Positions 42,499-46,271 of a stretch of 64,000 bases of DNA are shown in pieces. Position 1 is the first letter of the stretch. Each line of letters starts with the position of its first letter. A model generated the notes under the pieces. It was given only the letters and a program-made list of their open reading frames with translations, was not told where the DNA came from and did not search any database. The stretch comes from a virus (taxonomy: Duplodnaviria; Caudoviricetes), in IMG/VR virus record IMGVR_UViG_3300031857_000014, one strand, 5' to 3'. Made by a program: the position numbers and the translations under genes.

Positions 42499-42987
42499 TT
42501 AGTAAACTAAGATACATCTATCTGGTCTCATTGAACAAGTGATAGTTGCCACATCATCTCTTGAATAATCAAGATCATTAAAGTTTAAGTCAGTAATGAA
42601 TGTACCTTGAAGTATCCATTTCTCAACCACAACACCAGTTGGGTCAAGCATTTCCAATTCAATGTCTTTTTTATAACCAGCAGCATAACCCATACGACCT
42701 GTAACAGATTCAGCGTGTAAACGGAACCATTCCATTAACGCCTGTGCCGCTGAAGGACCAATTGGGTCTTTGAAAGTTACTCTCATTTCATTCCATTCAA
42801 ATCTACCAGCAACATAAGTTGATGTATTGATAAATGGAATTGCAACAGAATTGATTTTTGCACTAGGTCTAGCCGTTGATGTCACATACCACTCGTTAAT
42901 ACCCAAAGATGATGGAAATCTAAGGATGAATCGGTTTACTCTTTTCGGTTCATATGGAACCGGCATTTTCATTAATAAATCTGCCAT
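42499..42987 (-). CDS. gp19: Tail tube protein (T4 gp19-like)
   Basis: NRFILRF...RPSAKINSVAIPFINTSTYVAGRFEWNEMRVTFKDPI...YKKDIELEMLDPTG. Confidence 0.92.
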   Translation of the reverse strand: MADLLMKMPVPYEPKRVNRFILRFPSSLGINEWYVTSTARPSAKINSVAIPFINTSTYVAGRFEWNEMRVTFKDPIGPSAAQALMEWFRLHAESVTGRMGYAAGYKKDIELEMLDPTGVVVEKWILQGTFITDLNFNDLDYSRDDVATITCSMRPDRCILVY

Positions 42988-43100
42988 TTTTTAAATAATT
43001 AAGTTTTTTTGTTATCTTCCTATAAATACTACGTATTTGAGAATATTTTATTTTTTTTGAAAAATCTTGACTTTGTCATTTTTTTTCGTTAGTTTTTTAC

Positions 43101-43256
43101 TACCCAGTATCTAGGTTCCAGTATTCAGTATTAATATAACCAATTCCAGCATCTAGAATATTATATAAATACTAGAATATCTAGTTCTAGTATCTAGAAT
43201 AATAAATATAATATTATAAAACTAGTACTAGCATACTAGTTCCAGTATACTGGGTA
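43101..43256. repeat. CTAG / CCAGTAT iterated non-coding region, putative replication origin
   Basis: Nine CTAG between 43111 and 43239, several (TT)CCAGTAT-like units, flanking inverted repeats TACCCAGTAT (43101-43110) and ATACTGGGTA (43247-43256), and AT-rich spacers. Confidence 0.5.
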
Positions 43257-43261
43257 AATAG

Positions 43262-43277
43262 TGTTCCACGTGGAACT
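43262..43277. promoter_or_regulatory. parS-like palindrome TGTTCCACGTGGAACT
   Basis: Perfect 14-bp palindrome GTTCCACGTGGAAC fitting the parS family consensus tGTTnCACGTGnAACa (15 of 16). Confidence 0.65.
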
Positions 43278-43313
43278 ACCATATTCCCCCTTTATGTTAC
43301 CGAGTTTTTATAC

Positions 43314-43343
43314 AAAAAAAATCCTCTAGTTTTCTAGAGGATT
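43314..43343 (-). terminator. Intrinsic terminator after the sheath gene
   Basis: AATCCTCTAG-tttt-CTAGAGGATT stem with a T7 run on the minus strand. Confidence 0.75.
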
Positions 43344-43364
43344 TATATTTTATTTTAATGTTGA

Positions 43365-46271
43365 TTATATATTCTCAAATGAAGCACCAGTCGGAGTTAT
43401 ATTGAATTCAATCTCAATAAATTCAAGAGACCTAGTTGGTTTTAAGTAAATCTTTCCTCTCAATGTGTTTGCATCTAAATCCTCTGGATCACTAGACACT
43501 CTTACACGGAAATCGTAAAGACCTCTTTCTTTCTTTATAGACTCAAGAATAGGATTTACTAATCTCAAGAACTCTTGTCTTACTTGTTCGTCATTTTGTT
43601 CAAATAACAACCTTACAGATACCGCAGAAATCAATTTTCTTGCTCTCAACAATAATCTTCTAACATTAATTCTATCTAATGCAGATTCTCTTAATTGAAG
43701 AGTTTTATTACCCCAAATAATTGTACCTGTATCTGAGAATGTTGCGATAGGGTTAATTCTGTTTGAATATAAGGTGTCTCTTTCATCTAATGTAAGTTTC
43801 TTATTCGCTTTAATTGATTTAACAAGACCTCTTGAATAACCTGCAACTGCGAACCAAGGATACGATACATTATCGGTTAACGCAATATTTCTAACAACTT
43901 CACCTGTAGGCGGGATGTATAATTGTGTTGCGTTGTCTGTATCTCTAACCTGTATCCACGGCCAGTATGTCGCTGAATAGTTACTATCAATTGCGGAATC
44001 GTCAATCGCAGCAACTACTTCTTCAACACCTTCAGCACCAGTGAAATTAGGAGAGTTCATAATATATAATGAATCCGCTCTATCTTCTTCAATCATTTCT
44101 ATCGCTTGGTTAACCAATGAACTATGATCGTAGAAATTAATACCTGGTGTAGCGAATACATTTATATCAACCGCTTCAGGATTTTCAAATGTTTGAATAC
44201 CTTGAAGATACGCATAATAGTCAGAATTACCATTATTAACATCAAATACACCGCCATTATTTTGATTATTTGCGTTATATGTTGGTTTACCATAAATGTA
44301 ACCATCACCATAAGTTCTAACATTTCTATAGATATCCCAACCATCAAAACCACCACCAGCAGCAAATGTAAATTTACGATATCTGATGTCAGTTAATTTA
44401 TCTCCTACTGGTTGACCCTCCAAATCGTATGGAGTTGTAATATATGTGGTACCTGAAATTGTTGATGCGTTTACAGATAAGTGGAAACCAGATGTGGATG
44501 AAGTACCTTCAGCACCTTTATATTTAAATAAATCATTATCATATCTTGAACCTGTCTGATTTGATAAACCTAAAGATACTTTTCTTACTTTATCTCCATT
44601 TGATAATACCGCGGTACCATCAGCGTCATAATACATTGTATCGCCAGCATCAAAGTATTCTGTTTTATACAAAACATTACCTAAAGTACCACCACCAAAT
44701 GTTTGATTATTTACGAATCCTTTAAAACCAGCAGGGAATGCATCAACAGGTGCGTTATCTGCTATAGATAACATAATTAACTTAGAACGTAATTCATAGT
44801 CACCATTTGATGTACCTATTTTTTTAGCGACATAACCTGGTAAATCAGGATTCATACTACATCTTGAATATTTTTCTAAAACAACAGGATTATCATCAGT
44901 ATCATAGTAATCACGAACCAATAAATCAAAATCACCATTATCCAAATTAATATTAGCTATTTGAATTTTAACTGTGTAGTTTGCACTTTCACCATCAGGT
45001 ATTGTTATAATTTCAAACAAATCTGCAACTTTACCACCTCTAACCTCTGAAACAACCATTGGTGTTATCGGAGATAACCATTGACTCATAAAGTTTTCTG
45101 ATTCTGAATTTACAACTTTTGTTAAACTTAAACCTCTAACATATCCTTTTTGAAATGCAGATTGTAAGAATTTAGGGTATGCCTCATGAACGTATATTGG
45201 ATAGTCTGTTCTTGGTTTATCAAACACATCACTTCCCAAAACTTTAGTTATGTATTTTGAAGATGTTTGATCCATGGAACAAGTGAATTGTTTTGCACCA
45301 CCTGTTGTACCCGTTACGTTAATTATAAATTCTGCTAATGGATTTGTAGTAACACCACTTAAATCATCAATATCGAAACGAGATGAAAGAAATGTTTCAA
45401 GACTTAATGTGTTTTGTTGATAGAGACCTCTACTTCTAAGTGCAGCAACTATTAAATCTTTATACTGTGTTAACTCACCTGCATCGTATTTGAATCTAGC
45501 CACATCAAAATATCCATTTTGTGCGTCATATGCAAAAAGATAAGAATAAACACCATCAACATTTCCACTACCATCAAAAGATAAAAGTTTGTTTATCCAT
45601 TCTTTACCGTTAGGACTATCATCAGTATAAAACCCATTAAGTGGGGAAACTTGTTCAATTCCAAATAAAGATGATAATTCGGTAATCGCATTACCATCCA
45701 AATCGGTAACAATATATGCACCTAAATCAGGTACTAATCCCATAGTAAACCAGTTACCATCTTCAGAAGCACCATATCCACCAAAATTTGTTTCAATGTA
45801 ATCTGTTATTGTTGTTCCTTCAAATGAGAATATATTTGAAAGTTCATTATAAAAAATACTTGATGATGGGTTAGATGGGTCCATAGAGTCCACTACTAAA
45901 CTAGTATGTGCACTTGTATCTGCGGTAACACCAGCTAATGTTTGTATACCAAATGTTGTTGTTGGTTTATATCCAGTTAAACCAAGAATTCTTGTTACGA
46001 ATAGTTGGTTTGATTCTTCTAGATACGATTTAGCAACATACGGTAATTCATATTTTGGATTATCTGCACCGTCTTTTACAGGTGTAGTACTTCCAAAGTA
46101 TACTTTGAATTCATCAAAATTGGTAATTAATATTGGTTCAAATGCGGGACCCTTCAATGTCTCACCAACCAATCCGAGTGTTGTAACACCAACACTTTGT
46201 GCTACGAATGTTAAATCTTTCTCTGAGGTATATACACCGGGAGAAACGAATACTTTGTTTGAATTTGCCAT
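43365..46271 (-). CDS. gp18: Contractile tail sheath protein (T4 gp18-like)
   Basis: 968 aa. FVSPGVYTSEKDLT, GETLKGPAFEPI, INVFATPG, SNYSATYWPWI, PWFAVAGYSRG, LDRINVRRLL, PTRSLEFIEIEF. Confidence 0.97.
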   Translation of the reverse strand: MANSNKVFVSPGVYTSEKDLTFVAQSVGVTTLGLVGETLKGPAFEPILITNFDEFKVYFGSTTPVKDGADNPKYELPYVAKSYLEESNQLFVTRILGLTGYKPTTTFGIQTLAGVTADTSAHTSLVVDSMDPSNPSSSIFYNELSNIFSFEGTTITDYIETNFGGYGASEDGNWFTMGLVPDLGAYIVTDLDGNAITELSSLFGIEQVSPLNGFYTDDSPNGKEWINKLLSFDGSGNVDGVYSYLFAYDAQNGYFDVARFKYDAGELTQYKDLIVAALRSRGLYQQNTLSLETFLSSRFDIDDLSGVTTNPLAEFIINVTGTTGGAKQFTCSMDQTSSKYITKVLGSDVFDKPRTDYPIYVHEAYPKFLQSAFQKGYVRGLSLTKVVNSESENFMSQWLSPITPMVVSEVRGGKVADLFEIITIPDGESANYTVKIQIANINLDNGDFDLLVRDYYDTDDNPVVLEKYSRCSMNPDLPGYVAKKIGTSNGDYELRSKLIMLSIADNAPVDAFPAGFKGFVNNQTFGGGTLGNVLYKTEYFDAGDTMYYDADGTAVLSNGDKVRKVSLGLSNQTGSRYDNDLFKYKGAEGTSSTSGFHLSVNASTISGTTYITTPYDLEGQPVGDKLTDIRYRKFTFAAGGGFDGWDIYRNVRTYGDGYIYGKPTYNANNQNNGGVFDVNNGNSDYYAYLQGIQTFENPEAVDINVFATPGINFYDHSSLVNQAIEMIEEDRADSLYIMNSPNFTGAEGVEEVVAAIDDSAIDSNYSATYWPWIQVRDTDNATQLYIPPTGEVVRNIALTDNVSYPWFAVAGYSRGLVKSIKANKKLTLDERDTLYSNRINPIATFSDTGTIIWGNKTLQLRESALDRINVRRLLLRARKLISAVSVRLLFEQNDEQVRQEFLRLVNPILESIKKERGLYDFRVRVSSDPEDLDANTLRGKIYLKPTRSLEFIEIEFNITPTGASFENI

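What the first reader, a model, noticed from the sequence alone, without database searches (positions are those of the whole stretch)
43262..43277. Chromosome-type parS site in a phage genome next to the putative origin
Seen: TGTTCCACGTGGAACT, a GC-rich perfect 14-bp palindrome in very AT-rich non-coding DNA, directly beside the iterated region. Knowledge: bacterial parS consensus is tGTTnCACGTGnAACa. Such sites are origin-proximal, bind ParB-CTP and load SMC. No parA or parB gene lies in this window. Inference: the phage may recruit host ParB/SMC to position, compact or segregate its DNA (pseudolysogeny or carrier state), or may titrate host ParB. An origin plus parS arrangement mimicking the host chromosome would be a notable system.
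Basis: partly seen in the sequence, partly recalled or inferred. Interest (0 to 1): 0.75.

Follow-up and report, generated by a model that had tools for sequence, protein, structure and literature searches.

The report
Host-type parS site on giant phage
A giant freshwater phage that probably infects Flavobacteria carries, between its tail-sheath and tail-tube genes, one copy of the DNA "centromere" (parS) its likely hosts use on their own chromosome, so it most likely borrows the host's ParB protein, a trick already shown for Bacillus phage phi29.

Summary
TGTTCCACGTGGAACT (43262-43277) contains the perfect palindrome GTTCCACGTGGAAC. It is the only copy in the 142-kb contig and lies in the largest, AT-rich intergenic gap.

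It sits about 40 nt past the tail-sheath terminator and 6 nt from a unique CTAG-rich repeat array, upstream of the tail-tube gene.

The element is kept at this position in 53 of 82 informative related loci, while its flanks cannot be aligned. The canonical 16-mer appears in at least 8 separate lineages. Other lineages carry 1-3 changes, mostly at positions 9, 10 and 16, and some clades have lost it.

The phage encodes ribosomal protein bS21 and shows no Shine-Dalgarno sequence before the tube gene, which fits a published Bacteroidetes-infecting group. In 59 of 61 Flavobacteriaceae genomes the same 14-mer is the chromosomal parS.

Complete relatives have no ParA and no canonical ParB. They have only a ParB/Srx-domain protein whose second domain matches no known fold.

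Host ParB is therefore the most likely binder (about 0.6), but binding was not tested. The "origin" reading is unsupported.

Phi29 already provides a precedent, and this scan has noted similar orphan parS sites on other phage DNA. This is a new variant of a known kind.

The parts
43262..43277 (.). Host-type parS 16-mer TGTTCCACGTGGAACT; the inner 14-bp perfect palindrome is 43263-43276
   Evidence: Unique in the contig. The same place is conserved in relatives. It is identical to the Flavobacteriaceae chromosomal parS.
43319..43344 (-). Intrinsic terminator hairpin (11-bp stem, runs of A and T on both sides) ending the tail-sheath transcript. In most relatives the parS element starts 0-3 nt after the T run; here it starts about 40 nt after.
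43365..46271 (-). Tail sheath gene (968 aa), upstream neighbour in the direction of transcription
   Evidence: phrog_23 E 1e-61; Pfam Phage_sheath_1C above its cut-off (29.3 bits against 26.9) and Phage_sheath_1 just below its cut-off (29.6 bits against 31.4).
43101..43256 (.). CTAG/CCAGTAT/GGAAC repeat array bounded by inverted repeats (TACCCAGTAT ... ATACTGGGTA). It is the 'iterated region' of the finding. It is unique in the genome and is kept in all family members, including those without parS.
   Evidence: The 275-nt stretch 43090-43364, which spans the array, the parS element and the terminator, folds far better than shuffles (z -7.2).
43066..43079 (.). Second conserved dyad, TTGAC-N3-GTCAA type (here cttgactttgtcat), preceded on the tube strand by the conserved ACGAAAAA block
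   Evidence: conserved in nearly all relatives.
43020..43028 (-). TATTTATAG box (family consensus ATATTTATAAG) about 32 nt before the tube ATG; a candidate late promoter. The leader after it is A-rich with no Shine-Dalgarno sequence.
42499..42987 (-). Tail tube gene (162 aa), downstream neighbour
   Evidence: phrog_4542 E 1e-25; Pfam Phage_T4_gp19 24 bits, below its 28.2-bit cut-off.

Best explanation
The 16-mer is a genuine chromosome-type parS. It is a DNA site, not an RNA element, and it is read by a ParB-type protein. The most likely reader is the ParB of the Bacteroidota (probably Flavobacteriia) host. The phage family has no ParA and no canonical ParB, while the site is letter for letter the host family's own centromere sequence.

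Inferred mechanism: once phage DNA is in the cell, host ParB dimers nucleate on the site, close as CTP clamps and spread over the flanking few kb. This marks the phage genome as 'chromosome-like' for host ParA and/or SMC. The most likely payoff is positioning and inheritance of a non-integrating 300-kb genome in slowly growing or non-permissive cells (carrier state). Local insulation or silencing of the tube promoter region by ParB, and SMC-driven compaction, are alternatives.

Placement just after a strong terminator would shield the complex from RNA polymerase.

The element looks ancestral in the family and dispensable. Several lineages keep only one intact half-site plus a weakened second arm, and some have lost it.

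Shown: the sequence, its conservation, its identity with host parS, and the absence of phage ParA and canonical ParB. Inferred: binding, spreading and the payoff.
For: (1) Exact parS: chance expectation 0.05 per window even with 1 mismatch allowed.
(2) Syntenic conservation: 53 of the 82 loci with enough upstream DNA have an element within 3 mismatches, right after the sheath terminator, while the flanks are unalignable. The information profile is a sharp block at positions 0-15.
(3) The canonical CACGTG core occurs in at least 8 separated lineages of the tube-gene tree, and in two more distant relatives found independently (L202, L266).
(4) Positions 5 and 12 vary freely (C/T and G/A, all four combinations). 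These are the N positions of the bacterial consensus.
(5) 20 of 21 variants keep an intact GTTCCAC or GTTTCAC half-site. Extra half-sites flank the main site in several relatives. P. aeruginosa ParB binds these heptamers, and also parS-like sites with two substitutions (PMC10419367).
(6) Host link: the phage encodes bS21, shows no Shine-Dalgarno sequence before the tube ATG and resembles the freshwater bS21 phages predicted to infect Flavobacteriia (PMC9723584).
(7) 59 of 61 Flavobacteriaceae genomes carry GTTNCACGTGNAAC, usually two copies. In the one Flavobacterium genome inspected these flank mnmG. The dominant form is GTTCCACGTGGAAC. That genome has canonical ParA and ParB.
(8) No ParA (PF13614, PF01656) and no ParB_N above cut-off in the contig or in four relatives that are 92-100% complete.
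(9) Precedent: phi29 carries five host parS sites used through Spo0J (PMC2731898).
Against: No binding data exist. The centre of the site drifts. Position 10 is T in only 65% and position 9 is G in 82% of 34 distinct contexts. Variants such as TGTTTCACGAGAAACA are themselves conserved in three lineages with different flanks. Host sites matching the consensus were found in 59 of 61 genomes, so a broken core is not the usual host form. The left half is better conserved than the right, which is unexpected for a symmetric dimer site. About 29 of 82 loci lack the element, so it is dispensable. There is a single site per genome, against five in phi29. Relatives encode a ParB/Srx-domain protein that could be the true partner. 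The host assignment is indirect. The contig is only 43% complete.
Confidence: 0.6

Rival explanations
1. The element is the operator or loading site of a phage-encoded DNA-binding protein. One candidate is the family's 251-aa ParB/Srx-domain protein. It would act in regulating the tube gene or in handling the adjacent CTAG array, and its likeness to host parS would come from descent from, or convergence on, a ParB-type site.
For: Close and distant relatives encode a conserved ParB-like protein (phrog_12305, E 6e-22). It carries a GxxRxxA-type motif (GQHRLTA). Its N domain superposes on ParB (Z about 10, rmsd 2.0-2.1 over 87-90 residues). The left half of the site is better kept than the right, and broken-core variants are conserved. 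This fits a reader other than a strict host ParB. The region holds other conserved dyads.
Against: The phage protein shows no HTH_ParB by Pfam. hhalign against host ParB aligns only 49 N-domain columns. Its C-terminal domain modelled alone matches nothing in the PDB (Foldseek best E 2.6; VIA best Z 4.9). The gene is present whether the site is perfect, altered or reduced to half, so there is no co-variation. A 16-of-16 match to the host centromere is hard to explain without host ParB. The same 16-mer abuts terminators in unrelated phages that would not share a phage regulator.
Confidence: 0.2
2. The palindrome acts as a nucleic-acid hairpin. It could be a second stem after the sheath terminator, an RNA processing or stability element, or a cruciform, with no role for ParB.
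For: It directly follows the terminator T run in most relatives, and in several unrelated phage contigs (8 of 80 against 1.8% at random positions). It is predicted to pair in the RNA fold of the region.
Against: There is no consistent compensation. Pair 5-12 shows C-G, T-A, T-G and C-A. Pairs 7-10 and 8-9 are broken in a third of variants. The 5-bp stem is intact in only 13 of 21 variants (sense) or 15 of 21 (antisense). Isolated half-sites occur beside it. Any G+C-rich stem would serve as a hairpin, yet the sequence is exactly parS. It lies downstream of a terminator, so little RNA should cover it.
Confidence: 0.08
3. The element is a chance match or a neutral relic. It could be a fragment once acquired from a host, or a palindrome that drifted into the parS sequence, with no present function.
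For: It has been lost or degraded in many lineages. There is a single copy. In a second phage family a parS after the major-head terminator is only sporadic (about 6 of 80). Most exact 16-mers in IMG/VR lie inside open frames (56 of 80), so some matches are coding coincidences.
Against: A sharp 16-nt island of conservation sits in otherwise unalignable DNA across lineages that differ by up to 17% in tube protein. The chance of a match within 3 mismatches in 600 nt is about 0.02 per locus (my own estimate), against 53 of 82 observed. The canonical form recurs across the tree.
Confidence: 0.07

Closest known systems
Host-type parS sites of virulent Bacillus phages phi29 and Nf (bound by host Spo0J; Meijer et al. 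2005, as summarised in PMC2731898)
   Same: A non-integrating phage with no partition proteins of its own carries the host chromosome's parS sequence and so can be handled by the host ParB.
   Different: Phi29 has five sites, and their shown use is segregation of the phage genome into the prespore. Here there is one site on a roughly 300-kb myovirus whose predicted hosts (Flavobacteriia) are not known to form spores, so the payoff must differ. Binding is shown for phi29 and not here.
Chromosomal ParABS/parS of bacteria (B. subtilis Spo0J, Caulobacter ParB, P. aeruginosa ParB; review PMC7022226)
   Same: The same 16-bp consensus. The variable positions 5 and 12 are the N positions of that consensus. 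Half-site heptamers GTTCCAC and GTTTCAC are kept. A single parS can nucleate ParB and, in several species, load SMC.
   Different: The site is on a virus, is not clustered, is not next to parAB or a shown origin, and its core is often altered in relatives.
Self-encoded partition cassettes of plasmid prophages (P1 parABS, N15 sopABC)
   Same: A centromere-like site on phage DNA that serves inheritance of an episome.
   Different: Those phages encode their own ParA and ParB with private, non-chromosomal sites next to the genes. Here no ParA and no canonical ParB were found, and the site is the host's.
KorB/ParB-family CTP clamps acting as long-range transcriptional repressors (RK2 KorB structures 8qa8/8qa9 were among the fold hits)
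   Same: A ParB-type site placed beside promoters could silence or insulate neighbouring genes. The phage ParB/Srx protein aligns to KorB over 168 residues (rmsd 3.9).
   Different: No KorA or KorB homologue and no operator consensus were found. This is a functional analogy only.

Membership tests
Chromosome-type parS (ParB-binding centromere site) | 16-bp inverted repeat matching tGTTNCACGTGNAACa | tested here: met
   15 of 16 positions in the window, with all 14 inner positions matching; 16 of 16 in 14 related loci.
Chromosome-type parS (ParB-binding centromere site) | Same sequence as the parS used by the (candidate) host | tested here: met
   GTTCCACGTGGAAC is the dominant form in 59 of 61 Flavobacteriaceae genomes. 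In the Flavobacterium genome inspected the copies flank mnmG. The host assignment itself is indirect.
Chromosome-type parS (ParB-binding centromere site) | CACGTG core kept under selection among relatives | tested here: inconclusive
   The core is intact in at least 8 lineages, but positions 9 and 10 are altered in many others and the element is lost in about 29 of 82 loci. 20 of 21 variants keep one intact half-site.
Chromosome-type parS (ParB-binding centromere site) | Specific binding by ParB, with CTP-dependent clamp loading | not testable with these tools
   Needs EMSA, BLI or ChIP with a Flavobacterium ParB.
Chromosome-type parS (ParB-binding centromere site) | Origin-proximal position | tested here: inconclusive
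   No GC-skew turn at the site in the complete relative G002. Local minima lie at 40 and 53 kb, the site at 59.2 kb, and the skew follows gene orientation. No replication genes are adjacent.
phi29-type piracy of host parS by a phage | Host-type site(s) on a phage that lacks its own ParA and canonical ParB | tested here: met
   PF02195 is not above its cut-off, and PF13614 and PF01656 are absent, in the contig and in relatives that are 92-100% complete. Caveat: a ParB/Srx-domain protein is present.
phi29-type piracy of host parS by a phage | Several sites spread over the genome (five in phi29) | tested here: not met
   One exact site per genome in G000, G001, G002 and G003. Other hits carry a core mismatch and are not conserved.
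phi29-type piracy of host parS by a phage | Used for entrapment in the host's spore | not testable with these tools
   The predicted hosts are Flavobacteriia, which are not known to sporulate (own knowledge). A different payoff is required.
Self-encoded ParABS cassette (P1/N15 type) | parA and parB genes next to the site | tested here: not met
   The neighbours are the tail sheath and tail tube genes. No ParA occurs anywhere in complete relatives.
Structured RNA hairpin / terminator stem | Base pairs maintained by compensatory changes | tested here: not met
   Mismatches occur at pairs 5-12, 7-10, 8-9 and 3-14. The stem is intact in only 13-15 of 21 variants on either strand.
ParB family (for the relatives' 251-aa protein P0001) | ParB/Srx N-terminal domain with a GxxRxxA motif | tested here: met
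   GQHRLTA motif. Z about 10, rmsd 2.0-2.1 over 87-90 residues against Myxococcus ParB. Pfam ParB_N scores only 13-15 bits, below its cut-off.
ParB family (for the relatives' 251-aa protein P0001) | HTH_ParB DNA-binding domain and ParB_C dimerisation domain | tested here: inconclusive
   No Pfam hit. hhalign against host ParB covers the N domain only. The whole-model alignments to KorB and Noc span both domains, but the C domain alone finds nothing.

The most novel reading that the evidence does not exclude
Mimicry of the host centromere is a recurrent phage strategy well beyond phi29. Orphan, exact host parS sites would sit in transcription-shielded spots, directly after the terminators of major structural genes, in unrelated phage families. 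They would let non-integrating phages, including 300-kb giants of non-sporulating Bacteroidota, be positioned, compacted or inherited by host ParABS/SMC during a carrier state. The frequent decay of the core would record shifting benefit between hosts.
Probability: 0.3. Interest if true: 0.8.

Novelty: new variant of a known kind. Interest (0 to 1): 0.5.

Why it matters
If host ParB really loads on this site, a widespread group of freshwater giant phages that look strictly lytic would have a built-in way to be treated as a mini-chromosome by Flavobacteria. That bears on how such phages persist between blooms (carrier state or pseudolysogeny). It bears on host prediction, because the site matches the host's parS. 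It also bears on how far the phi29 trick extends beyond spore-formers. It gives a simple bench test: Flavobacterium ParB against a natural series of 21 site variants.

Tried and rejected
- **General phage motif.** The excess of GTGGAAC in the contig is coding (Gly-Gly-Thr repeats in fibre-like proteins). No other intergenic copy exists.
- **Restriction escape as the cause of core drift.** CACGTG is not avoided (observed/expected 0.75-0.99). G009, which has a broken core at the site, still has 12 CACGTG elsewhere.
- **Origin of replication.** No GC-skew turn at the site.
- **Co-variation of the site with the phage ParB-like gene.** The gene is present with perfect, altered and half sites. Too few large contigs were available for a real test.
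- **C-terminal domain of the ParB-like protein.** No PDB match by Foldseek (best E 2.6) or VIA wide (best Z 4.9), so no family could be assigned.
- **Phage record search.** blastn of the locus against 50,697 phage records gave no match.
- **Literature.** Searches with parS/ParB/phage terms found mostly uses of ParB-parS as a labelling tool. Livny et al. 2007 is not held.
- **IMG/VR count.** The exact 16-mer occurs in at least 120 stretches, against 3 for a reversed control palindrome. I do not use this as proof of function, because 56 of the 80 listed lie in long open frames.

Full report
**1. Observation**

One search shows tgttccacgtggaact at 43262-43277. The inner 14 bases, GTTCCACGTGGAAC, are a perfect palindrome with 57% G+C. 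This is the most G+C-rich of the 11 perfect 14-bp palindromes in the window.

The site lies in the largest intergenic gap of the window (42988-43364, 377 bp, 24.9% G+C). Allowing one mismatch, GTTNCACGTGNAAC is expected 0.05 times per shuffled window, and one exact copy is present.

The window is part of a 141,857-bp IMG/VR virus record judged 43% complete. That record holds this one copy only and no ParB_N match.

**2. Anatomy of the locus**

All flanking genes are on the minus strand:
- Upstream in the direction of transcription is the tail sheath gene (43365-46271; phrog_23, E 1e-61).
- Downstream is the tail tube gene (42499-42987; phrog_4542, E 1e-25).
- A baseplate hub gene follows.

Read on the tube strand, the gap holds, in order:
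- A strong bidirectional terminator (43344-43319).
- The parS element, about 40 nt later.
- Six nt on, a 155-nt array of CTAG/CCAGTAT/GGAAC units closed by inverted repeats (43256-43101).
- A conserved ACGAAAAA block.
- A TTGAC-N3-GTCAA dyad (43079-43066).
- A TATTTATAG box (43028-43020).
- An A-rich leader without a Shine-Dalgarno sequence before the ATG.

The 200-bp bin with the array holds 10 CTAG against a genome mean of 0.17.

**3. Relatives**

The tube protein has more than 590 relatives in IMG/VR, and the best 80 were fetched. The same gap architecture recurs throughout them.

In 53 of the 82 loci with enough upstream DNA, an element within 3 mismatches of TGTTNCACGTGNAACA sits 240-340 nt before the tube ATG. 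In most it starts 0-3 nt after the terminator's T run, and its flanks cannot be aligned.

Fourteen loci are fully consensus. Thirteen carry TGTTCCACGTGGAACA and one carries TGTTTCACGTGGAACA.

Over 34 distinct contexts the information profile is a sharp block from position 0 to 15. The weakest positions are:
- Position 10: T in 65%.
- Position 16: A in 50%.
- Positions 5 and 12: C/T and G/A.
- Position 9: G in 82%.

On a tree of the tube gene, the intact CACGTG core occurs in at least 8 separated lineages. Two further, more distant relatives with the perfect 16-mer (L202, L266) turned up in an independent pattern scan. Broken-core variants (ACGA, ACGC, ACAT, ACAA, ACGG centres) and complete losses are interspersed.

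The simplest history is an ancestral canonical site that has repeatedly been weakened or lost. The CTAG array, the dyad and the TATTTATA box are kept even where the 16-mer is gone. The parS element is therefore an accessory of this region, not its core.

**4. DNA site or hairpin?**

The partners of the putative stem do not co-vary:
- Pair 5-12 shows C-G, T-A, T-G and C-A.
- Pairs 7-10 and 8-9 are broken in about a third of the 21 distinct variants.
- The 5-bp stem is intact in only 13 (sense) or 15 (antisense) of the 21 variants.

By contrast, 20 of 21 variants keep at least one intact heptamer GTTCCAC or GTTTCAC. Extra isolated half-sites (TGTTCCAC, GTGGAACA, GTGAAACA) lie beside the main site in several relatives. 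That is the behaviour of a protein-binding site with turnover.

In P. aeruginosa these two heptamers are the half-parS motifs bound by chromosomal ParB. That ParB also binds parS-like sites with two substitutions (PMC10419367). Positions 5 and 12, free here, are the N positions of the bacterial consensus (PMC7022226).

**5. Who could bind it?**

*Host.* The contig encodes ribosomal protein bS21 (34 bits, above the cut-off). With the missing Shine-Dalgarno sequence, the roughly 300-kb relatives and the lake origin, this fits the freshwater bS21 phages predicted to infect Bacteroidetes, mainly Flavobacteriia (PMC9723584).

In a sample of 61 Flavobacteriaceae genomes, 59 carry GTTNCACGTGNAAC, usually two copies about 1.9 kb apart. 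The dominant form is GTTCCACGTGGAAC, the phage's own sequence.

In one Flavobacterium genome the sites flank mnmG/gidA. That genome has a canonical ParA (255 aa) and ParB (299 aa, with ParB_N, HTH_ParB and ParB_C domains). A Saprospirales genome also has canonical sites.

*Phage.* No ParA (PF13614, PF01656) was found in the contig or in four relatives that are 92-100% complete. No ParB_N above cut-off was found either.

Relatives do encode a conserved 251-aa protein about 150 kb away (phrog_12305, 'ParB-like partition protein', E 6e-22). It lies outside this incomplete contig.
- Its model (pLDDT 91.7) has an N domain that superposes on ParB (Z about 10, rmsd 2.0-2.1 over 87-90 residues). It carries a GxxRxxA-type motif, GQHRLTA.
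- It has no HTH_ParB by Pfam.
- It aligns to the host ParB only over 49 N-domain columns.
- Its C-terminal domain, modelled alone (pLDDT 91.3), matches nothing in the PDB.
- The gene is present in genomes whose site is perfect, altered or reduced to a half-site.

It remains a possible partner but a weak one.

**6. The 'origin' claim**

In the complete relative G002 (310,542 bp), the site is at 59.2 kb. The cumulative GC skew has local minima at 4, 40 and 53 kb and rises steadily through the site, following the long block of co-oriented genes. In the window the skew is monotonic across the locus.

Nothing marks the array as an origin. What the array is remains open. The 275-nt stretch 43090-43364, which spans the array, the parS element and the terminator, folds far better than shuffles (z -7.2). 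The array is unique in both genomes examined.

**7. Wider context**

Of 80 listed loci:
- Two belong to this family.
- One has a ParB-like gene nearby and none has ParA.
- 56 lie inside open frames of at least 100 aa, so many may be coding coincidences.
- Eight abut a terminator-like hairpin, against 1.8% of random positions. These include loci after a major head protein gene.

In that second family the site is only sporadic, about 6 of 80 relatives.

**8. What is known**

Earlier notes of this scan pointed to phi29. I checked the cited paper. The phi29 genome contains five parS sites for host Spo0J, and the phage exploits the host segregation machinery to get its genome into the prespore (PMC2731898).

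The principle, a virulent phage carrying orphan host parS, is therefore established. The scan has noted similar sites on many other phage genomes (88 notes hold all the search words; the eight shown describe host-type parS sites on phages).

What is different here:
- The host clade is not known to form spores.
- The phage is a roughly 300-kb myovirus.
- There is a single site at a fixed place in the tail module beside a unique repeat array.
- There is a natural series of weakened variants.

**9. Verdict**

My estimates are:

| Reading | Probability |
|---|---|
| Site bound by ParB of the host | about 0.6 |
| Site of a phage protein | 0.2 |
| Hairpin | 0.08 |
| Relic or chance | 0.07 |

This is a new variant of a known kind, of moderate interest.

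Noticed in passing
window 43101-43256: CTAG/CCAGTAT/GGAAC repeat array closed by 10-nt inverted repeats. It is unique in the 142-kb contig and in a complete 310-kb relative. It is present in every family member, including those without parS, and its inner repeats expand and contract between relatives. The 275-nt stretch 43090-43364, which spans the array, the parS element and the terminator, folds far better than shuffles (z -7.2). Its function is unknown (binding array, structured RNA or cruciform).
   Followed up: partly
window 43020-43079: Two further conserved non-coding elements lie before the tube gene. One is a TTGAC-N3-GTCAA dyad preceded by ACGAAAAA. The other is an ATATTTATAAG-type box about 32 nt before the ATG, followed by an A-rich leader with no Shine-Dalgarno sequence.
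   Followed up: partly
L087:958-1713 (-), in relative G001; homologues L088 and P0002-P0121: A conserved 251-aa ParB/Srx-domain protein with a GQHRLTA motif. Its well-modelled C-terminal helical domain (pLDDT 91) has no match in the PDB. At least 190 clusters of homologues occur in metagenomes.
   Followed up: partly
L189-L268 (IMG/VR loci with the exact 16-mer): The perfect parS 16-mer occurs in at least 120 viral stretches, against 3 for a reversed control palindrome. Eight of the 80 listed abut a terminator-like hairpin (for example L190, L192, L228, L240). One of 80 has a ParB-like gene nearby. 56 of 80 lie inside long open frames.
   Followed up: partly
L240:8770-8785 and relatives L333-L412: In an unrelated phage family the perfect parS follows the terminator of the major head protein gene. 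Only about 6 of 80 relatives have a parS-like element there, in three different local arrangements.
   Followed up: partly
whole records G000, G002, G009: Strong avoidance of some palindromic hexamers. GACGTC occurs 0 times against 4.5-10.8 expected in all three records. TTGCAA occurs 0 times against 58.7 expected in G009. CTTAAG occurs 2-3 times against 27-44 expected in G002 and G009. This is a likely restriction-avoidance signature.
   Followed up: no
L030, L051, L052, L055, L056 (upstream of the tube gene): In several relatives an extra open reading frame on the opposite strand sits just upstream of the tube regulatory region, where other relatives have the end of the sheath gene. In L030 it largely displaces the repeat array. 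It has not been annotated.
   Followed up: no
L312:2347-4360 (Flavobacterium sp. genome G014); spacing seen across G016-G075: In G014 the chromosomal parS copies flank mnmG/gidA, not parAB. In the Flavobacteriaceae sample the copies mostly come as a pair about 1.9 kb apart.
   Followed up: partly
G002:C1:240341-240354: A one-mismatch parS-like sequence (TTTCCACGTGCAAC) lies inside the ParB-like gene of the complete relative G002. No such sequence was listed in the ParB-like gene of G001.
   Followed up: no
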